Positions 9,606-62,815 of a stretch of DNA of 64,000 bases are shown piece by piece; positions within the stretch are counted from its first letter, which is position 1; every line of letters begins with the position of its first letter. Both the position numbers and the translations under genes were made by a program. Below the pieces are notes generated by a model. That model worked only from the letters and a program-made list of their open reading frames with translations, was not told where the DNA came from and made no database searches. Location: positions 24,253-88,252 of the forward strand of contig JBBTQX010000003.1 of NCBI GenBank assembly GCA_038065455.1, written 5' to 3'. This stretch comes from Patescibacteria group bacterium. GTDB taxonomy: Bacteria > Patescibacteriota > Minisyncoccia > UBA6257 > GWB1-50-10.

Positions 9606-10390
9606 TTTCCTTTCAGTCTTGCCTTAAAAATCTTTATATCCACCAAAAATCTGTACCAAAATCCCTGGAGAGAGTGGAAAATCAGCCCTTCTTTTCCGTC
9701 CAAAAAGCCGAGCCGGATGAAAAAACGGTAGAAAAAATAAAGGCACGGCCGTAAAAATGGCGGCAAGCGGTAATAAAAAGAGCGTTTCGGATCATTCGCG
9801 GCTCCGCCGTTCAGGATATCCTTCACTTCCCTGTCCGAATATTTTTTGTGGCGCTCTATCCATTCTTTCAATCCTTTCCGGTTATCGTCCACAAAATCGT
9901 TTTTCAGGCGGCCGGACTCGCCTTCGAGCAATATCATATGCTCATCCATCTCTTTGTCTTCGGAACGGCCCATACCTTTCCGCCACAGCCTTAAAAACCA
10001 AATCGGATAATAGCCGCCGTGTTTTATCCAGCGTCCCATAAAATAAACGCGGCGCTTCATATAATATCCGTTGACTGCGGACCCGGAACCAATGACATTT
10101 TTTATTTCCTCCGCGAGTTCGGGAGTGAGATACTCATCGGCATCCAACTTCAAAATCCATTCGCCTTTTATTTCCAAATAATCCAGCGCCCAATTGAACT
10201 GTTCCGCCTGATTTTTGAAAGAATGGGTAAATGTTTCGGCGCCGAGTTTTTTTGCCAATTCAACCGTTCCATCCGTACTGCCAGAATCAACTACGATTAT
10301 CTGGGACGCGAGACTGCCGACGCTTTTAAGGCATCTTTCAAGATGTACGGCTTCGTCTTTGGTAAGAACTATAAGAGTAAGGTTATTCAT
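9602..10390 (-). CDS. Family 2 glycosyltransferase.
   Basis: LIVLTKDEAVHLERCL...VVDSGSTDGT GT2 signature. ATGA overlap with wecB. Confidence 0.7.
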   Translation of the reverse strand: MNNLTLIVLTKDEAVHLERCLKSVGSLASQIIVVDSGSTDGTVELAKKLGAETFTHSFKNQAEQFNWALDYLEIKGEWILKLDADEYLTPELAEEIKNVIGSGSAVNGYYMKRRVYFMGRWIKHGGYYPIWFLRLWRKGMGRSEDKEMDEHMILLEGESGRLKNDFVDDNRKGLKEWIERHKKYSDREVKDILNGGAANDPKRSFYYRLPPFLRPCLYFFYRFFIRLGFLDGKEGLIFHSLQGFWYRFLVDIKIFKARLKGK

Positions 10391-10511
10391 CCCGTTAGAG
10401 ACAGGATGCGCTCAAAAAGCGCATCCGTGATAGATTAGTTAACTCAACTTTATTGGATTTCATTGATTGTTTGATGATTATATTTTTCATAAGGTTTATG
10501 TCTCTAACGGG
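10391..10511. repeat. Copy 2 of the inverted-repeat element (121 bp). It has the same 12-bp TIRs. The hairpin GGATGCGCT...AGCGCATCC carries compensatory changes. It abuts the ATG of the 9602..10390 gene.
   Basis: Read directly from the sequence. Ends are homologous to copy 1 and the interior has diverged. Confidence 0.6.
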
Positions 10512-10512
10512 A

Positions 10513-11694
10513 TCAATTTTTCAGTATTTTATTATATTCGGCGAGCATCGCCTCCGCCACCTTATCCATTGAAAATTCTTTTTGAATCATTTCTCTGCCT
10601 TTTGCCTTAAATTGTTTTTTTAGATCTGGGTTTTTTAAAACCTTTAATATCGCTTCCGCAAACTTTTTCTCGTCTTTTTCAATAACCATGCCGGCCCCGT
10701 ATTTTTCAACATAGGGGCTTATTCCGACTTCGGGTGTAATCACAACCGCTGTTCCATATGCTCCTTCCATGGCAGCCATGCCGAAATTTTCCGAATAGGA
10801 CGGCAAAACAAAAACTGAAGAATCGCCGAAAGCAGCTGTTTTTTCGCCATCCGCAAGCATCCCTGTAAATACGACGTCTTTTCCATTTTTCAAATCATTC
10901 TTCGCTATAAAACCCCGAATTTGTTTCTCATAATTGTCTTCATCGCCGCCCGCTATGACCAGGATTGCTTTCGGCTCCTCCGCCAAGACCCGCTTGAATG
11001 CCGGAATCAAGGTATCAAAACCCTTCTTCCAATTCAAACGGCCGAGAGAGAGAATAATCTTTCTGTCGGGCGATATCCCGAATTTCTCCCTGGAAAATTT
11101 CGGAGCGGATTTTCCGCCAAATTCATCCAACTCAATTCCGTTTGGAATTATGAATGAACTTTTGAGCGGCAAGCCGGCCGCCAAGTACTCTTTCTTTTCG
11201 GCCTCGGCTGTAAAGTGGATTGCGGCTGCGCCGGCCAAATTTTTCTTCTCCACCAAATTCAGGTAAAGCCATTTTTTAAAATTGCTTTTTCTGGCCAGCG
11301 GCTCTTTCATTAAGCTTCCCCGGGGAGAAATAATATACGGCTTTTTGGATTTATTCGCATAACAGGCGCCCAAAGCGGAAGCCGCAAGAAAAACCGAAGT
11401 TATATGCACCATATCAAACTCTTTGATATTTTCTTCCAGAGCTTTGCGCAATGCGCGCGAATAAATCCAAAATCGTGGAAACGAAACGGGAAAATAAAAA
11501 ACTTTTACTCCGTCTACCGGTATCTCCCGCCCCAACGGAACGTCCAGTGTTTCGCGCCCATTTATATTCGTGGTGTAGACCGTCACATCCGCTCCTTTTT
11601 TCACAAGCCATTTATTCAAAGAATGGACGCTCTGAATCGGCCCGCCGTAGCCGTATGCGGGCAGATAGCTGGGAACGATATGGAGAATTTTCAT
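10513..11694 (-). CDS. Family 4 glycosyltransferase.
   Basis: MKILHIVPSYLPAYGYGGP N-terminus. C-terminal GT-B nucleotide-sugar binding region. Confidence 0.7.
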   Translation of the reverse strand: MKILHIVPSYLPAYGYGGPIQSVHSLNKWLVKKGADVTVYTTNINGRETLDVPLGREIPVDGVKVFYFPVSFPRFWIYSRALRKALEENIKEFDMVHITSVFLAASALGACYANKSKKPYIISPRGSLMKEPLARKSNFKKWLYLNLVEKKNLAGAAAIHFTAEAEKKEYLAAGLPLKSSFIIPNGIELDEFGGKSAPKFSREKFGISPDRKIILSLGRLNWKKGFDTLIPAFKRVLAEEPKAILVIAGGDEDNYEKQIRGFIAKNDLKNGKDVVFTGMLADGEKTAAFGDSSVFVLPSYSENFGMAAMEGAYGTAVVITPEVGISPYVEKYGAGMVIEKDEKKFAEAILKVLKNPDLKKQFKAKGREMIQKEFSMDKVAEAMLAEYNKILKN

Positions 11695-58555: not shown

Positions 58556-59869
58556 CTATTCCGCGGGGCGTTCGGTGAGGATGACGGATAAATCCAAAGT
58601 TTTTTCCACTCTTCTAATCTTCGCCGAAATAGTCTCGCCGATAGAATAGCGCTGAATGAGATTTCCGAGCGAATTTTGGTCATCCACTTTTATTCCGTTT
58701 ATTTCCAAAATGACGTCTTCCGCTTGTATGCCCGCCTTCGCGGCCGGAGAATCCTTCAGGACTGCCGGGCCATCGTTCGAGCCGCGCACGAGCGCGCCAT
58801 AATTTACGGCCAATTTTTCCTTCTTTGCCAACTCTTCCGTCACCGCCATATATCGCACGCCGAGATAGGAGATTTTTATCGTTCCGGTATTCCGCATGGA
58901 GTTGATATCGCGCTTCGCCTGGTTGATCGGGATTGTGAAGCCGATACTTTGCGCCCCCTCGGCCACAGCCGTGTTGATACCGATAACTTCGCCTTTCAGA
59001 TTCAAAAGCGGTCCGCCGGAATTTCCTGGGTTGATGGCCGCGTCCGTCTGAATGACATTTGAGATGGTTTCCGTTCCGACGCTCGCGCCCGAAGCGGTGA
59101 TGGTGCGGGAAAGACCGGAAATCACCCCGACCGAAACCGTATTCCGAAATTCTCCCAAAGAATTGCCGATTGCGATGGCCGTCTGGCCGAGTTTCAGCGT
59201 ATCCGAATCGCCCAGCGCCACAACCGGCAGACTGGCCGCTTCGATTTTCAAAACTGCCAAATCCTGCATCGGGTCGCGGGCCAAAACCTTGGCGTCGTAC
59301 TTCTTGCCGCTGTTCATAACGACGGTATATTCAGCCGCGGTGTCCGCTACTACGTGCTTGTTCGTCAAAATCAATCCGTCCGCCGAAATTATGAAACCAC
59401 TGCCGCCGCCTACATCCTGTTTCTGCTTTTTCCCGCTGTCGCAAGACTGGGAAAAACCGCCGAACTGCCCGCCAAAAAAATCGCGGAACTCCGGCGGAAT
59501 ATTTCCGAATGGATACGTCTGACATTGCTCAATTACGGGCAAATCTTTCGAGACTACGACCGAAACGACGGAGGGCGAAGCTTTTTCCACCGCTTTCATC
59601 ACCGCTTCTTCATAGTCTATTGTCGGAACATAGGGAATTGCCTCGGTTTTTTTGGCTTCAATGGTTGAGGTTGGAGAATTAGAAAGCGTTCCGCCTCTCA
59701 CGAAATTCCAAACATCGTCGAGAAAATTCGCCTGAGCGAAACGGGAGGCCGCGATCGACCCGAAAAATCCGCCCACCAAACCGGCCACAATTACGATTAT
59801 TATGAATTTTTTATTAATCATTTTTAATAATTTTAAATTATAAGTTCTAAATTTTAATTTAATATCCAA
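58556..59869 (-). CDS. htrA: HtrA/DegP-family serine protease (trypsin-like domain plus PDZ domain).
   Basis: N-terminal TM helix. TNKHVV...GNSGGPLLNLKGEVIGINTA catalytic motifs. C-terminal PDZ domain. Confidence 0.8.
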   Translation of the reverse strand: MDIKLKFRTYNLKLLKMINKKFIIIVIVAGLVGGFFGSIAASRFAQANFLDDVWNFVRGGTLSNSPTSTIEAKKTEAIPYVPTIDYEEAVMKAVEKASPSVVSVVVSKDLPVIEQCQTYPFGNIPPEFRDFFGGQFGGFSQSCDSGKKQKQDVGGGSGFIISADGLILTNKHVVADTAAEYTVVMNSGKKYDAKVLARDPMQDLAVLKIEAASLPVVALGDSDTLKLGQTAIAIGNSLGEFRNTVSVGVISGLSRTITASGASVGTETISNVIQTDAAINPGNSGGPLLNLKGEVIGINTAVAEGAQSIGFTIPINQAKRDINSMRNTGTIKISYLGVRYMAVTEELAKKEKLAVNYGALVRGSNDGPAVLKDSPAAKAGIQAEDVILEINGIKVDDQNSLGNLIQRYSIGETISAKIRRVEKTLDLSVILTERPAE

Positions 59870-59939
59870 ATGAACAAATTTTTAAATTTTTGAACAATTA
59901 AAATTAAATTGAAATTTGAAATTTAGAATTGGGAAATTA

Positions 59940-60719
59940 TCAACGTATCTCGTACCTCAAAGTTACGTTCACTTTCACATCTTCCGAACCGGCCTCGATT
60001 GCCGGAGCAATAGATGCGTCGGCATTTTTCATCATTGATTCGCCACCCATACCATAAGCATATGATGCGGGTGTCGCCGAATTTTCGTAAATCTCGAGGA
60101 GCCGCCCGATACCGAAACCGCCGGCCCTCGCCAATTCTTTCGCTTTTATTTTGGCCTTGTCTATCGCCTCGGCGCGCGCATCGGCTCGAGCAGAATCCGG
60201 ATCATCGATGGTAAATTGGAGCTGGGAAACCGTGTTCGCGCCGCTCGCCACGATACCGCCCAGAATATCGCCGATGCTAGAAAAATCCCGGACCTTCACA
60301 TCCACATTTTGGGAAACGGTATAACCCACGATTTCCGCGGGCGGGCAAGGCTGAACGCTCGACTCGAGCGGCCGGTAGCAATTATAGCTCTGATAGCGCG
60401 GCGAGATATTGTAGTTCTGCGTTTTAATATCCTTTGCCTCGATGCCTTTCGATTTCACGAAATCAATCGCCTTGTTCATCTTCGTCATATTCTCCGTCTG
60501 GAGCGCTCCCAAATCTTTGCCGCCTTCGGTCATCACGCTGAAATTGAACTCGGCTACATCCGGCACGACAACCGTCTTTCCTTCGCCCGAAACCGAAAAA
60601 CTCCGAAAAGAGGTCGGCTGAGAATTCGCATAAGCGGACGAATAAACCCACACCGAGTAGGCTCCGGCCAAAAGCATAATGATTATTGCGACATACAAAT
60701 ACTGTTTTGTTTTCTCCAT
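59940..60719 (-). CDS. SIMPL/DUF541 domain protein (YggE-like).
   Basis: N-terminal TM helix followed by the SIMPL-domain pattern. 259 aa. Confidence 0.55.
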   Translation of the reverse strand: MEKTKQYLYVAIIIMLLAGAYSVWVYSSAYANSQPTSFRSFSVSGEGKTVVVPDVAEFNFSVMTEGGKDLGALQTENMTKMNKAIDFVKSKGIEAKDIKTQNYNISPRYQSYNCYRPLESSVQPCPPAEIVGYTVSQNVDVKVRDFSSIGDILGGIVASGANTVSQLQFTIDDPDSARADARAEAIDKAKIKAKELARAGGFGIGRLLEIYENSATPASYAYGMGGESMMKNADASIAPAIEAGSEDVKVNVTLRYEIR

Positions 60720-60800
60720 TTTTTTGTTTATTGTTTTTTTTGTTCAGCCCTTCGACAAAAGGGCATATGTGGGAATTGTAAAAAATCTTCCCGTTTATGT

Positions 60801-62162
60801 CTAACGGAGGATTTTGCCGATTCGTTTCAGGGCTTCTTTTATTTCGCCTGTTCCAAGCGTTTTTCCGAAGCTGAAGCGCAGACTTCCCCGCACTCTTTCC
60901 TGGGGCAAGCCGAGTGCTTGAAGCACGGGCGAAGGAACGTAGGAGCGGGCGGAGCAAGCCGAACCAGCCGAAACCGCAATGCCGGCCATATCCAATTTAA
61001 CGAGCAGATCGCCCGCAAATTCCGTCGGGAAGTAAATATTCAGAATGTGCGGCGCATCGCTTTTGCCGTTGATTTCGGCTTGCGGATAGATTTTTTTGAG
61101 GCCCCGCCAAAATTCATCCCTAAGTGACTTTACTTCTTTCGTATTTTTGCTCCGGTCCTTTACCGCCAGTTCAACCGCTTTTCCGAAACCGATTATCGCC
61201 GGAATATTTTCCGTGCCGGAACGCAAACCAAACTCCTGCCCGCCACCCGTCACAATTGGTTTCACCAATTGCAAATTCGAATTTCTAAATCCTAAATCCG
61301 AAACACGGTTTTGAGTTTGGAATTTTGAATTTTGATTTTGTTTCGAATTTCGTGCTTCGAATTTCGTGCTTCGCATGTAAAGCGCTCCGACTCCCTTCGG
61401 GCCGTAAATTTTTTGGCCGGAAAGCGTCATTAAATCCACGCCAAGATTATCAACATCACAGTCAAAATAATTCAGAGCTTGGGCGGCATCAACGTGAAAA
61501 AGTGGGTACTTTTTCACCAAATCCGAATTTCTAAATCCTAAATCCGAAACACTTTTTTGAATTTGGTTTTTTGAATTTGGAATTTGTCCCGACCTTGTCG
61601 AGGATACTCGATGAAATCGGTATTTAGGATTTCGTGCTTCGGGCTTAGAATTTCTGAAATTGCGGATAATCTTTGCGATTTCGGCAATGGGCTGAATGCT
61701 CCCGATCTCGTTATTCACGTGCATCACGGAAACCAGGGCAGTCCGCTCATCCAATGCCTTTTCCAATTTTTTCAAATCCACAATGCCATTCTTGTCCACC
61801 GGGACATAAACTACTTCTATTCCCTCTTTCTCCAATTCGCGCGCCGTATCCAAAATGGATTCGTGTTCTATACAACCGACAATTATCTTTGGTAAAAAAA
61901 CTTTTACCGTCCCCCGCAGGGCAAGGTTATTCGCCTCCGTCGCCGAGCCGGTGAAAATAATATTCCGGAAATCCGCGCCCACGGCCTTAGCAACTGCGCC
62001 CCTAGCCTTATCCATCGCGCCCATTGCCTCCTGGCCGAAAGAATGAAGCGAGCCCGGATTACCGAACTTCTCCGCAAAATAGGGCATCATTACCTTCAAA
62101 ACTGCCGGCTCCACCGGAGTCGAAGCGGCATAATCCAAATAGATTCGGGATGGTTTGTTCAT
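60801..62162 (-). CDS. Cysteine desulfurase (class V aminotransferase, IscS/NifS-like) carrying two in-frame low-complexity insertions.
   Basis: YLDYAASTPV...SGQKIYGPKGVGALY...GGGQEFGLRSGTENIP conserved blocks. Insertions of about 45 and about 30 aa each contain VSDLGFRNS. Confidence 0.7.
   Translation of the reverse strand: MNKPSRIYLDYAASTPVEPAVLKVMMPYFAEKFGNPGSLHSFGQEAMGAMDKARGAVAKAVGADFRNIIFTGSATEANNLALRGTVKVFLPKIIVGCIEHESILDTARELEKEGIEVVYVPVDKNGIVDLKKLEKALDERTALVSVMHVNNEIGSIQPIAEIAKIIRNFRNSKPEARNPKYRFHRVSSTRSGQIPNSKNQIQKSVSDLGFRNSDLVKKYPLFHVDAAQALNYFDCDVDNLGVDLMTLSGQKIYGPKGVGALYMRSTKFEARNSKQNQNSKFQTQNRVSDLGFRNSNLQLVKPIVTGGGQEFGLRSGTENIPAIIGFGKAVELAVKDRSKNTKEVKSLRDEFWRGLKKIYPQAEINGKSDAPHILNIYFPTEFAGDLLVKLDMAGIAVSAGSACSARSYVPSPVLQALGLPQERVRGSLRFSFGKTLGTGEIKEALKRIGKILR
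61264..61376. repeat. Palindromic repeat element copy A, inserted in frame in the cysteine desulfurase gene.
   Basis: Shares CACCAA..GAATTTCTAAATCCTAAATCCGAAACAC...TTTCGTGCTTCG with copy B. Contains the AAATTCGAATTT palindrome. Confidence 0.5.
61514..61640. repeat. Palindromic repeat element copy B, inserted in frame in the same gene.
   Basis: Internal inverted repeat CTAAATCCTAAATCCGAAA ... TATTTAGGATTTCG. Homologous to copy A. Confidence 0.5.
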
Positions 62163-62815
62163 TATTGCTTCCCCATCAGGCTTTTCAGAATACTGTCCAC
62201 GATTTCTTTTCCTTTCGGATTCTCTTCGCAGGCGGCGAGGAGTTTAGTTAATTTTTTCCGGTGCCCCCAGGAGAGCGACGCGCCTTCGGAGCTTTTTGTT
62301 TTTCCGTTCGGCAATCCGTTCAAGGGGAAAAATTTCGCTTTTTCTATTGCCTCATCCCGCTCTTTGCCCGGAGCGGATTTCGGTTCGTCTTGGGCGACGA
62401 CGAGAAAAAACTTATCTTCGTGAAATTGCGCACCGGGCCGCTCTGAAGGTATTCGGATCGAAACCGAAAGTTCCGGATCAATGAGTTCTTTATCGAACGT
62501 GAGGCCGGCTTCTTCTTCAAATTCGCGATGCGCCGTAGCGACAAGATCGGAATCTTTTTGCGGATTAAAATGACCCATCGGCATCTTCCAGACTTTTTCT
62601 TCGACGAAAACGCCGCCGGTCTTCTGAGCGTTCTTCTCGCCCGGTTTCTGGAGAACTAAAAGGAGCTGCGGTTCGTTTTTTCCGAACTTTATATAGGCCA
62701 CGCCGGCCGAATAGCTAACTATTGGATCCATCGCTCTTGCCGTAAAAGCCGCCGATGTTCGCGCGACGGAAAATTTCGAGAATAACCGTGAGACCGATGC
62801 CGGAAATAACGGCAA
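62162..62815 (-). CDS. Nudix hydrolase.
   Basis: Nudix box GHFNPQKDSDLVATAHREFEEEAGL. The likely true start is an internal Met near 62731. Confidence 0.6.
   Translation of the reverse strand: MPLFPASVSRLFSKFSVARTSAAFTARAMDPIVSYSAGVAYIKFGKNEPQLLLVLQKPGEKNAQKTGGVFVEEKVWKMPMGHFNPQKDSDLVATAHREFEEEAGLTFDKELIDPELSVSIRIPSERPGAQFHEDKFFLVVAQDEPKSAPGKERDEAIEKAKFFPLNGLPNGKTKSSEGASLSWGHRKKLTKLLAACEENPKGKEIVDSILKSLMGKQ

What the first reader, a model, noticed from the sequence alone, without database searches (positions are those of the whole stretch)
61264..61640. Two homologous palindromic mini-elements inserted in frame inside a cysteine desulfurase gene
The IscS/NifS-like ORF (60801..62162) is about 60-70 aa longer than typical. 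The extra length is two insertions, each encoded by a copy of the same repeat. Copy A (61264..61376) and copy B (61514..61640) share CACCAA..GAATTTCTAAATCCTAAATCCGAAACAC...TTTGG..TTTTGAATTT...TTTCGTGCTTCG. Both have internal inverted repeats, and both translate as ...VSDLGFRNS(N/D)L.LVK... in the coding frame. They interrupt the enzyme between conserved blocks without breaking the reading frame. Insertion site 1 is after ...IAKIIRNF and insertion site 2 is after ...GALYMRSTKFE. This resembles the in-frame Rickettsia palindromic elements. To my knowledge it has not been described for this element family or for this lineage.
Basis: partly seen in the sequence, partly recalled or inferred. Interest (0 to 1): 0.7.

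Follow-up and report, generated by a model that had tools for sequence, protein, structure and literature searches.

The report
In-frame hairpin repeats inside desulfurase
A cysteine desulfurase gene of a groundwater Patescibacteria (CPR) bacterium carries two stop-free copies of a 7-base-periodic hairpin repeat in its reading frame, and that repeat family occurs between genes in many bacterial phyla and inside many housekeeping genes of CPR bacteria, much like the palindromic elements of Rickettsia.

Summary
The IscS/NifS-like ORF (60801..62162, minus strand, 453 aa) has two inserts absent from solved desulfurases and from insert-free orthologs (376-390 aa). Insert A is 61272..61370 (33 aa). 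Insert B is 61518..61652 (45 aa). They share 75 nt at 87% identity and an exact 28-mer.

They are not a local duplication. A 20-mer from them occurs in at least 120 genome contigs (Patescibacteria, Planctomycetota, Verrucomicrobiota and others). About half of the non-coding copies are full hairpins. 29 of 120 lie in frame in long ORFs (LeuRS, GatB, SecA, Pol I, TopA, UvrC and others), nearly all without the T-rich arm, which carries stops in every frame.

Units are degenerate heptamers (lag-7 identity 0.55-0.61 against 0.28 in shuffles). Copy B holds a nested 36-nt mini-palindrome that a 99%-identical sibling strain lacks. That mini-palindrome is itself a repeat family of at least 119 metagenome contigs.

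Across 85 orthologs, the same two loops are empty or filled by several different repeat types, almost at random on the tree. AlphaFold2 gives a confident core and low-confidence inserts.

Best reading: translated, truncated, Rickettsia-element-like selfish hairpin repeats in permissive loops. The insertion mechanism is unknown. No description was found in the literature.

The parts
60801..62162 (-). Cysteine desulfurase (IscS/NifS-like, class-V aminotransferase) ORF of 453 aa. It is intact, with the PLP lysine (SGQK, K251) and the catalytic cysteine loop (SAGSACSARS, C403).
   Evidence: ORF list. Pfam PF00266, E 2e-68. PDB phmmer hits to IscS/NFS1, E 1e-80 to 1e-85, in three stretches. AF2 model matches NFS1/IscS/NifS with target-normalised TM 0.83-0.90.
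61518..61652 (-). Insert B (loop site 1), aa N171-L215, 45 aa. It is an in-frame heptamer-periodic hairpin repeat lying between helix 159-172 and the strand that carries the PLP-binding Asp225.
   Evidence: Unaligned to solved structures. Absent from orthologs P0008, P0013, P0014, P0017, P0043 and P0067. nhmmer hit. pLDDT below 50 for residues 175-216.
61623..61652 (-). Insert B, outer 5' arm in coding orientation: AATTCTAAGCCCGAAGCACGAAATCCTAAA.
   Evidence: Inverted repeat I9/I4 with 61523-61543. Codon alignment.
61587..61622 (-). Nested 36-nt mini-palindrome TACCGATTTCATCGAGTATCCTCGACAAGGTCGGGA (aa Y181-G192). It is present here and absent from the sibling-strain gene.
   Evidence: The indel against P0001/L123 lies in a gene otherwise 99% identical at the nucleotide level. 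It belongs to a family found in at least 119 metagenome contigs. No target-site duplication beyond a 1-nt ambiguity (sequence).
61553..61586 (-). Insert B, inner A-rich heptamer run: CAAATTCCAAATTCAAAAAACCAAATTCAAAAAA. It has no stop codon in any frame.
   Evidence: Sequence. Lag-7 identity for copy B is 0.55 against 0.29 +/- 0.04 in shuffles.
61518..61552 (-). Insert B, outer 3' arm: GTGTTTCGGATTTAGGATTTAGAAATTCGGATTTG, read as VSDLGFRNSDL.
   Evidence: It contains the reverse complement of the 20-mer used for the genome scan.
61272..61370 (-). Insert A (loop site 2), aa S265-L297, 33 aa. It is a second in-frame copy of the same repeat, after the strand that follows the PLP lysine.
   Evidence: Unaligned to solved structures. 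Absent from insert-free orthologs. nhmmer E 2e-25. The AF2 low-confidence segment is 267-317, which also covers about 20 native residues after the insert.
61340..61373 (-). Insert A, outer 5' arm: CGAAGCACGAAATTCGAAGCACGAAATTCGAAAC, two 14-nt units. Its first codon is R264.
   Evidence: Direct-repeat family D1 and inverted repeat I2/I6.
61308..61339 (-). Insert A, inner A-rich heptamer run: AAAATCAAAATTCAAAATTCCAAACTCAAAAC.
   Evidence: Sequence. Lag-7 identity for copy A is 0.61 against 0.28 +/- 0.04 in shuffles.
61272..61306 (-). Insert A, outer 3' arm: GTGTTTCGGATTTAGGATTTAGAAATTCGAATTTG, read as VSDLGFRNSNL.
59834..59939 (.). Related AT-rich heptamer-periodic hairpin in the spacer between the SIMPL-domain gene and the HtrA-like protease gene. 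Apart from the two inserts it is the only heptamer-periodic segment in the 64-kb window.
   Evidence: Inverted repeats I1/I3, 28 nt at 82%. Fold. Sliding lag-7 scan of the whole window.

Best explanation
The two inserts are translated, truncated copies of a dispersed family of AT-rich hairpin repeats built from degenerate 7-nt units. I call the family H7 below.

A full H7 element has five parts in order: an outer 5' arm (...GAAGCAC/GAAATYC...GAAAC), an inner A-rich arm (AAATTCA/AAAATTC units), a loop, an inner T-rich arm (TTTTGAA units), and an outer 3' arm (GTTTCGGATTTAGGATTT...). Such elements sit between genes, often just after a gene end, in many phyla.

When H7 DNA lands in a coding region, only copies meeting three conditions can survive. 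They must sit in a tolerant surface loop. They must be in the single stop-free frame of the outer arms. They must lack the T-rich inner arm, whose 7-nt-spaced TGA triplets close all three frames within 21 nt.

Both copies here have exactly that form: outer 5' arm, A-rich run, outer 3' arm. They add 45 and 33 hydrophilic residues, probably disordered, to two loops of an otherwise complete IscS-type fold.

The loops are insertion hot spots with fast turnover. Other lineages carry other hairpin repeat types, decayed remnants, or nothing at the same positions. New palindromes can nest in old ones, as the 36-nt mini-palindrome in copy B does. Copies are kept similar by recent re-seeding or gene conversion rather than by selection on the peptide.

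What is shown: family membership, anatomy, in-frame status, the polymorphism, and the hot-spot pattern. What is inferred: that the inserts are translated, that they are neutral or selfish, and how they insert. The lack of a target-site duplication and the nesting inside hairpins point to a hairpin or single-strand-DNA route or a recombinational route rather than a cut-and-paste DDE transposase.
For: 1. It is a dispersed family. By my count of record titles these are about 44 Patescibacteria, 30 Planctomycetota, 7 other PVC-group bacteria, and the rest from other phyla or unclassified.
2. Arm content differs by context. 40 of 80 non-intragenic copies have both arms, against 1 of 28 intragenic copies (Fisher p = 3e-6).
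3. 29 of 120 copies lie in frame in long ORFs. 22 read as LNPKSET and 7 as VSDLGFR, and these are the only open frames. Pfam confirms LeuRS (several H7-like inserts), GatB, SecA, Pol I, TopA, a DinB-like polymerase, UvrC and PurL.
4. 7-nt periodicity. Lag-7 identity is 0.61 and 0.55 against 0.28 +/- 0.04 in shuffles. The family average is 0.42 against 0.26 in controls.
5. Signs of amplification and mobility. One MAG holds at least 9 near-identical copies of a roughly 232-nt MITE with terminal inverted repeats that carries the hairpin inside it. The nested 36-nt palindrome is present in the H41 strain and absent from the H51 sibling, which is 99% identical elsewhere. That palindrome occurs in at least 119 metagenome contigs. 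30 of 120 occurrences are in long ORFs, in all three forward frames. It often sits at the same junction inside H7 hairpins, for example in L131, L140, L153 and L157.
6. Hot-spot turnover across 85 orthologs. Site 1 is empty in 27, H7-like in 19 and another repeat type in 39. Site 2 is 31, 22 and 32. Fitch change counts are 29 and 33, against shuffled means of 37.5 and 39.7. P0002 has an unrelated (GGAATCA)n hairpin at site 2. P0003 has only a remnant at site 1.
7. Divergence is blind to codon position. Insert DNA between this gene and P0002 or P0003 is identical at 51 of 60 third positions. The flanks are identical at 61% of third positions (Fisher p = 1.5e-4). First- and second-position differences in the inserts are as frequent as third-position ones.
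8. Structure. The core has pLDDT above 90 and the inserts below 50, predicted as coil. The core fold is complete.
9. The polymorphic indel is 36 nt and each variant keeps the frame.
Against: - The 64-kb window holds only three family members, all within 1.9 kb, and two of them are in this one gene. In six ortholog loci the strong profile matches lie in the desulfurase genes; the only other matches are weaker ones (down to E 8e-07) in L129. That is not what a prolific random inserter would leave.
- H7 inserts in distant orthologs share the same boundaries (STKHEARN... to ...ISDLQQL), which suggests common descent or site specificity.
- No target-site duplication, transposase or other mobilising gene was identified.
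- Translation is not demonstrated.
- The third-position conservation could instead reflect a functional DNA or RNA constraint.
- The NJ tree used for the turnover estimate is rough, and my repeat-type classes are regex-based.
Confidence: 0.7

Rival explanations
1. Each loop acquired its insert once, early in this desulfurase clade. The inserts were inherited vertically and kept because the DNA or mRNA hairpin, or the peptide, has a function. Possible functions are a regulatory or pausing structure in the mRNA, or a docking loop.
For: - Related H7 inserts with the same boundaries occur at both sites in orthologs of 50-60% identity.
- Third positions in the inserts are more conserved than in the flanks.
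- In the window and in six ortholog loci the strong matches are in this gene, with only weaker matches elsewhere, in L129.
- Both copies keep foldable arms.
Against: - Occupancy of the two loops is almost random on the ortholog tree.
- Close relatives at 71% identity carry a different repeat type or only a remnant at the same site.
- About a third of orthologs have empty loops and are otherwise normal.
- The same DNA occurs in unrelated genes and in intergenic spacers of other phyla.
- There is no codon-position bias in insert divergence, so the peptide is not under purifying selection.
- AF2 gives low-confidence coil for the inserts.
Confidence: 0.15
2. The inserts are not translated. They would be removed from the mRNA or bypassed by the ribosome, like a mini-intron or a translational hop, so the protein is of normal length.
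For: Both inserts can form hairpins in the mRNA. No expression data are available.
Against: - Every intragenic copy examined is in the one stop-free frame and keeps the frame.
- The part of the element that carries stops in all frames is exactly what is missing from intragenic copies.
- The strain polymorphism is 36 nt, a multiple of three.
- None of this would be needed if the segment were removed.
- No Rfam intron or ribozyme match was found.
- At 99 and 135 nt the inserts are far too small for group I or II introns or inteins.
Confidence: 0.03
3. The second copy arose by a local duplication within the gene, with no wider repeat family.
For: The two copies are 246 nt apart and share an identical 28-mer. 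Within a genome, the 3' arms at the two sites are often more alike than orthologous arms are: 0.97, 0.84, 0.81 and 0.97, against a between-genome mean of 0.80.
Against: The core occurs in at least 120 unrelated genome contigs and in many other genes. Within-gene similarity is better explained by gene conversion between two family members.
Confidence: 0.02
4. The inserts are an assembly or binning artefact, with repeat-induced chimeric joining placing them in the gene.
For: Repeats do break and mis-join metagenome assemblies. Several copies of the MITE in CBDUPZ01 sit at contig ends. The 1.7-kb contig encoding P0007 looks mosaic.
Against: The identical 453-aa protein is encoded on independently assembled contigs from two samples. 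The 441-aa variant is found on four contigs. Dozens of orthologs from different studies have inserts at the same loops with an intact frame.
Confidence: 0.02

Closest known systems
Rickettsia palindromic elements (RPEs; Ogata et al. 2000, as summarised in the MITE review PMC10969869)
   Same: Both are short palindromic repeats found in intergenic DNA and inserted in frame into many unrelated housekeeping genes. Both leave the host protein apparently functional. In both, the added peptide sits outside the conserved core.
   Different: - The lineages are unrelated: many phyla here against one genus for RPEs.
- The sequences are AT-rich and built from degenerate heptamers.
- The full H7 element cannot be read through, so the coding copies are truncated or half elements.
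- The same loops are repeatedly occupied by different repeat types.
- Palindromes nest inside one another.
- Sequence homology to the RPE families was not tested.
Bacterial MITEs that create ORF fusions (QMITE1 of Coxiella, PMC5896051; intragenic ERIC and BOX elements and Anabaena MITEs, cited in PMC10969869 and PMC2229807)
   Same: Both are small, non-autonomous, hairpin-forming repeats that occur inside genes and can add or replace peptide segments. One MAG here has a bona fide MITE with terminal inverted repeats that carries the H7 hairpin. In 9 of 80 non-intragenic copies the element's TAA supplies the stop codon of an upstream ORF of at least 100 aa.
   Different: For the copies in this window, no target-site duplication, no terminal inverted repeats distinct from the hairpin itself, and no parent insertion sequence were found. 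The near-identical core across phyla is unusual for a MITE family.
Terminator-like mobile hairpins (SPRITE of Streptococcus pneumoniae, listed in PMC10969869) and REP/BIME elements
   Same: The intergenic H7 copies are long hairpins placed just after gene ends, with an A-rich 5' side and a T-rich 3' side.
   Different: Terminator activity was not tested. The simple terminator scan did not call them, because their stems are AT-rich. An association with a REP-associated tyrosine transposase (RAYT) was not examined.
Heptanucleotide repeat families (cyanobacterial STRR repeats, from my own knowledge; intergenic TAACTGA repeats of Beggiatoaceae, PMC4679880)
   Same: The unit length is 7 nt, the repeats are abundant in intergenic DNA, and related units are shared between distant lineages.
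   Different: Those are direct tandem arrays. H7 elements arrange degenerate heptamers as an inverted repeat and enter coding regions.
Coding palindromes in mitochondrial genes of Nematomorpha (PMC6649704)
   Same: Both are inverted repeats embedded in protein-coding sequence and read in frame.
   Different: In Nematomorpha both arms are translated and the system is mitochondrial. Here the stop-bearing arm is lost, and the repeats belong to a dispersed bacterial family.

Membership tests
Rickettsia palindromic elements (RPE) | Sequence homology to one of the described RPE families. | not tested
   No RPE reference sequences were available in the tools I used. The heptamer-based AT-rich composition gives no reason to expect homology.
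Rickettsia palindromic elements (RPE) | Host is Rickettsia or the Rickettsiales. | tested here: not met
   The source is a Hainich groundwater assembly. The closest homologs are named Patescibacteria, Minisyncoccia or Wolfebacteria.
Rickettsia palindromic elements (RPE) | Palindromic repeat inserted in frame into unrelated conserved genes, with intergenic copies as well. | tested here: met
   29 of 120 copies lie in long ORFs of many families, and the others are intergenic hairpins. This shows that it works like an RPE, not that it is one.
MITE (miniature inverted-repeat transposable element) | Small, multi-copy and non-coding as an autonomous unit. | tested here: met
   The elements are 99-135 nt here. 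At least 120 genome contigs share the core. One MAG has at least 9 near-identical copies. The window itself holds only three members.
MITE (miniature inverted-repeat transposable element) | Terminal inverted repeats. | tested here: inconclusive
   The outer arms are inverted repeats (21-24 nt, 75-81%), but they are the hairpin itself. Only the CBDUPZ01 element has separate terminal inverted repeats.
MITE (miniature inverted-repeat transposable element) | Target-site duplication. | tested here: not met
   The one clean filled-versus-empty comparison is the nested 36 nt in the window against L123. It shows only a 1-nt ambiguity. No consistent duplication flanks the CBDUPZ01 copies.
MITE (miniature inverted-repeat transposable element) | A related autonomous insertion sequence or transposase. 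| not tested
   No partner gene was searched for systematically.
REP/REPIN elements | Association with a RAYT (TnpA_REP) gene and a conserved GTAG-type motif. | not tested
   No RAYT search was done. No GTAG-type 5' motif is evident in the arms (sequence).
Intein, or group I/II intron | Splicing domain motifs or a ribozyme structure, and the corresponding size. | tested here: not met
   The inserts are 33 and 45 aa, or 99 and 135 nt. Rfam gave no match at gathering threshold. At relaxed threshold it gave only sub-threshold generic hairpin hits.
Class-V aminotransferase / IscS-NifS cysteine desulfurase (host gene) | PF00266 fold with the PLP lysine and the catalytic cysteine loop. | tested here: met
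   H100, D225, Q228 and K251 are invariant, and C403 nearly invariant, among 28 orthologs.

The most novel reading that the evidence does not exclude
H7 hairpins, the GGATCC-centred mini-palindrome and the other repeat types seen in these loops may be modules of one undescribed, cross-phylum system. In this reading an unknown sequence-specific mechanism actively writes hairpin DNA into genomes. It preferentially targets existing hairpins and a few tolerant protein loops. Candidate mechanisms are hairpin-targeted single-strand-DNA transposition or templated synthesis of heptamer repeats at breaks. If so, CPR (Patescibacteria) proteomes are pervasively and rapidly remodelled by translated repeat DNA. 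The near-identity of cores across phyla would then reflect the recognition requirements of that machinery.
Probability: 0.25. Interest if true: 0.85.

Novelty: new variant of a known kind. Interest (0 to 1): 0.62.

Why it matters
In-frame selfish palindromes have been treated largely as a peculiarity of Rickettsia, with scattered MITE examples elsewhere.

Here the same phenomenon appears in Patescibacteria, a very large uncultivated radiation with reduced genomes. It affects core enzymes: aminoacyl-tRNA synthetases, SecA, Pol I, TopA, GatB and IscS. The repeat family is also spread through intergenic DNA of many other phyla.

This has four consequences:
- It explains part of the puzzling length variation and low-complexity segments of CPR proteins.
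- It warns annotators and structure predictors that these segments are repeat DNA and not domains.
- It offers natural permissive-loop maps for protein engineering.
- It raises a testable question: what mobilises and homogenises a heptamer-periodic hairpin across phyla?

Tried and rejected
- Rfam at gathering threshold on the whole window, and at E <= 10 on 59700-61800. Nothing but sub-threshold generic hairpin (miRNA-precursor) hits.
- tRNA/tmRNA scan of the window: none found.
- Protein-level searches with the insert peptide. A 66-aa concatenation of both inserts found only 5 candidates and no hit. phmmer of the 33-aa insert A against 1.84 billion representatives gave 0 hits at E <= 0.001. 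Short low-complexity peptides are not retrievable this way, so breadth was taken from DNA scans instead.
- Viral contigs: only 1 of 2.9 million carries the 20-mer, as a short half-arm upstream of an ORF. There is no sign that phages are the vector.
- Simple promoter and terminator scan of 59500-62500: no enrichment, and nothing called inside the inserts.
- Seven literature searches by sequence string, by 'palindromic element / in-frame / Patescibacteria', by MITE/CPR, by RPE together with CPR phyla, by RPE and coding-palindrome phrases, by heptamer terms, and by intragenic/inverted repeat/CPR terms. They returned the RPE, MITE and heptamer-repeat papers cited here, but no description of this family or of in-frame repeats in CPR.
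- Local tandem duplication, intein or intron, and assembly artefact were all considered and rejected (see the rival explanations).
- The within-genome against between-genome arm comparison is only suggestive. Two of four genomes show clear within-genome similarity.
Full report
WHAT IS THERE

The window's minus strand carries an intact 453-aa ORF at 60801..62162. It matches Pfam Aminotran_5 with E 2e-68. It also matches solved IscS/NFS1/NifS desulfurases with E down to 3e-85, but only in three stretches. Residues 168-220 and 266-299 have no counterpart in those structures.

Insert-free orthologs are 376-390 aa long and join the flanking blocks directly. They read ...FRKER-AYPLFH... at the first site and ...LYxxNPK-LLSP... 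at the second.

At the DNA level, the two extra segments share 75 nt at 87% identity and an exact 28-mer. That 28-mer occurs nowhere else in the window and in none of 100 shuffles. Each segment has inverted-repeat arms and folds better than its shuffles, with z from -2.0 to -3.2.

The refined coordinates are:
- Insert A: 61272..61370, aa S265-L297.
- Insert B: 61518..61652, aa N171-L215.

The exact protein is encoded on contigs from two independent Hainich aquifer assemblies. The best homologs are named Patescibacteria, Minisyncoccia or Wolfebacteria.

IT IS A DISPERSED REPEAT, NOT A LOCAL DUPLICATION

By my count of record titles the hits are about 44 Patescibacteria, 30 Planctomycetota and 7 other PVC-group bacteria. 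The remainder are Desulfobacterota, Calditrichota, Bacteroidota and others, plus unclassified MAGs.

Aligning the flanks shows the full element, which I call H7. It has an outer 5' arm (...AAATCCGAAGCACTAAATCCTAAATCCGAAAC), an inner A-rich arm (AAATTCAAAATTCAAAAC) and a loop. The reverse complements of the two arms follow the loop.

The sequence is built from degenerate heptamers:
- Lag-7 identity is 0.61 for copy A and 0.55 for copy B, against 0.28 +/- 0.04 in shuffles.
- Across the family, the 50 nt next to the ascertained 20-mer give 0.42, against 0.26 in controls.
- A sliding scan finds only three heptamer-periodic segments in the 64 kb. They are the two inserts and an intergenic hairpin at 59834-59939.

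No Rfam family matches.

TWO CLASSES OF COPY

Of the hits that could be scored, 40 of 80 non-intragenic copies have both arms, against 1 of 28 intragenic copies (Fisher p = 3e-6).

29 of 120 hits lie in long ORFs with at least 30 codons on each side. All are in the single stop-free frame for their orientation: 22 read LNPKSET and 7 read VSDLGFR. Pfam confirms the hosts as LeuRS (several H7-like inserts), GatB, SecA, DNA polymerase I, topoisomerase I, a DinB-like polymerase, UvrC and PurL. About 24 of the 29 are in Patescibacteria.

The sequence itself explains this pattern:
- Each outer arm carries two TAA or TAG triplets 7 nt apart. These close two frames and leave one open.
- The A-rich arm is open in all frames.
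- The T-rich arm (TTTTGAA units) places a TGA in a new frame every 7 nt. Three units close all three frames.

A full hairpin therefore cannot be read through on either strand.

The two copies in this gene have exactly the permitted form: outer 5' arm, A-rich run, outer 3' arm.

In 9 of 80 non-intragenic copies, an upstream ORF of at least 100 aa ends at the element's own TAA.

EVIDENCE OF RECENT CHANGE

A sibling strain from another well (P0001/L123) has the same gene at 99% nucleotide identity. It lacks 36 nt inside copy B, TACCGATTTCATCGAGTATCCTCGACAAGGTCGGGA, at window 61587-61622. There is no target-site duplication.

That 36-mer is itself a small two-level palindrome. Of 120 occurrences, 30 are inside long ORFs, and all three forward frames are used. 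The three readings are SPDGKAIEDPRQSRD, SRWQSHRGSSTKSGQ and PSRILDKVGT.

The mini-palindrome often sits at the junction between the outer and inner arms of an H7 hairpin, as in L131, L140, L153 and L157. This is the same composite seen in copy B. An ortholog, P0099, has the composite at the other loop.

Separately, one MAG (CBDUPZ01) holds at least 9 near-identical copies of a roughly 232-nt MITE. It has its own terminal inverted repeats and carries the hairpin inside it.

THE TWO LOOPS ARE HOT SPOTS

Among 85 orthologs that could be parsed:
- Site 1 is empty in 27, H7-like in 19, and filled with other low-complexity, hairpin-type peptides in 39.
- Site 2 is empty in 31, H7-like in 22, and other in 32.

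The other repeat types include ESGIRN...IIHNSKF, RARPAPPLR...SLSLRGGAES and KKSVSE...ETPSFRE.

On a neighbour-joining tree built from the masked alignment, Fitch parsimony needs 29 and 33 changes. Shuffled states need 37.5 and 39.7 on average, so occupancy is close to random on the tree.

DNA from syntenic relatives makes this concrete:
- P0002 (71% identity) has the H7 element at site 1 but an unrelated (GGAATCA)n hairpin at site 2.
- P0003 has a short H7 at site 2 and only a remnant (GFGETGIPD) at site 1.
- More distant orthologs (P0010, P0027, P0030) have H7 at both sites, with the same architecture but different unit composition.

It does not undo the repeat origin. It shows recurrent colonisation, decay and replacement, possibly with allele exchange between lineages.

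HOW THE COPIES EVOLVE

Between this gene and P0002 or P0003, the flanks are 79% identical overall and 61% at third codon positions. The shared inserts are 83-85% identical overall and 83-88% at third positions (51 of 60; Fisher p = 1.5e-4).

Differences inside the inserts are spread evenly over codon positions: 19 of 120 at first and second positions and 9 of 60 at third positions. The peptide is therefore not under protein-level purifying selection. The DNA is either younger than the gene split, through re-seeding, conversion or exchange, or it is constrained as DNA or RNA.

Within-genome similarity of the 3' arms at the two sites is 0.97, 0.84, 0.81 and 0.97, against a between-genome mean of 0.80. 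This hints at conversion between the two copies.

STRUCTURE

AlphaFold2, run with the 28-sequence alignment, gives pLDDT above 90 for the core. Residues 175-216 and 267-317 fall below 50 and are predicted as coil. The model matches NFS1/IscS/NifS with target-normalised TM scores of 0.83-0.90.

Insert B lies between helix 159-172 and the strand carrying D225. Insert A follows the strand after the PLP lysine K251. That both are surface loops away from the active site is my inference from the fold. I did not measure it.

INTERPRETATION

The best-supported reading (confidence about 0.7) is that these are translated, truncated members of a selfish or neutral hairpin repeat family in permissive loops. 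They are functionally analogous to Rickettsia palindromic elements.

They are not members of that family. The host lineage criterion fails and homology was not tested.

Against a simple MITE, I found no target-site duplication and no partner transposase. The window also holds only three members, all within 1.9 kb.

The main rival (about 0.15) is an ancient, vertically inherited insert under functional constraint. Non-translation, local duplication and assembly artefact are each unlikely.

LITERATURE

A 2024 review of prokaryotic MITEs lists RPEs, BOX, ERIC, QMITE1 and Anabaena MITEs as cases of in-frame fusion. It does not mention Patescibacteria (PMC10969869). Heptamer direct repeats shared between distant lineages (PMC4679880) and coding palindromes in nematomorph mitochondria (PMC6649704) are partial analogues. 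None of seven searches found a description of this family or of in-frame repeats in CPR. Absence from this library is not proof of novelty.

VERDICT

The feature is real. It is a new variant of a known kind of system. Interest is moderate to high.

The mechanism of insertion and the reason for cross-phylum sequence conservation remain open. They are the most interesting part of the finding.

Noticed in passing
window 59834-59939: An AT-rich heptamer-periodic hairpin (28-nt arms, 82% complementary) lies in the spacer between the SIMPL-domain gene and the HtrA-like protease gene. The mechanical ORF 58556..59869 (TTG start, MDIKLKFRTYNLKLLKMINKK...) probably over-extends into this hairpin, and the real start is likely the MINKKF methionine.
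   Followed up: partly
window 61587-61622; L131-L210 and further loci: The nested 36-nt piece belongs to a very widespread mini-palindrome family, (G)TCCCGAT-N9-ATCGAGGATCCTCGACAAAGTCGGGAC, with a perfect TCGAGGATCCTCGA centre. It is found alone, inside H7 hairpins, and in frame in ORFs in all three forward frames.
   Followed up: partly
L010, L015, L028, L034, L051, L055 (plus contig ends L007, L111, L120), MAG CBDUPZ01: At least 9 near-identical copies of a roughly 232-nt MITE with terminal inverted repeats TATTGCTCTTTGG...AAATAAAC / GTTTATTT...CAATA, carrying an H7 hairpin internally. Three copies break contigs.
   Followed up: partly
L124:3021-4337 (P0002), site 2; orthologs P0004-6, P0024, P0044, P0046, P0063: A second heptamer hairpin family, (GGAATCA)n...ATTCATAATTCC, read as ...ESGIRN...IIHNSKF, occupies the same desulfurase loop in other lineages. 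Further repeat-like insert peptides (RARPAPPLR...SLSLRGGAES, KKSVSE...ETPSFRE, CKIARLQD...AISNLQS, TNNESFTNKRI...IRKFAANSIFAD) recur at both loops. Insert lengths also vary at two further positions: after LRGxV and after EINGxx.
   Followed up: partly
L126 (P0007, 1.7-kb contig JBGGHJ010040582.1): The identity profile to the window gene is mosaic. It is about 80% over most of the gene but 92-98% around site 2, where the insert is identical at 98 of 99 nt, and the 3' end is diverged. This is either recombination between lineages or a repeat-induced chimeric contig.
   Followed up: partly
L002 (Patescibacteria LeuRS, 935-aa ORF): A single leucyl-tRNA synthetase gene carries several separate in-frame H7-like inserts by eye: FEILNPKSETNSKSKIKNSK, EILNPKSEILNKSQISNSK, AQNSKFKVQNK and ALNSKSKIPNSKQSQ...NLNFKNSDLFRIWNLEF.
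   Followed up: no
L130:10001-11578 (P0010), site 2: An H7 element whose centre is replaced by other repeat-like DNA (...VVRHPEWSEGSLRGDSSFAGRRTQNNG...). This is another case of repeats nested within a repeat.
   Followed up: no
window 10385-10517: An intergenic 19-nt inverted repeat at 95% (ATTCATCCCGTTAGAGACA / TGTCTCTAACGGGATCAAT) flanks a 95-nt spacer that contains a GC-rich hairpin (GGATGCGCTCAAAAAGCGCATCC). It is unrelated to H7 and its nature was not determined.
   Followed up: no
window 62162: The desulfurase start codon region abuts the stop of the upstream NUDIX-family ORF (62162..62815). The gene order Cob_adeno_trans, hypothetical, MgtC, NUDIX, desulfurase, SIMPL, HtrA-like protease, ClpB is largely conserved in relatives L124, L125 and L130.
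   Followed up: partly
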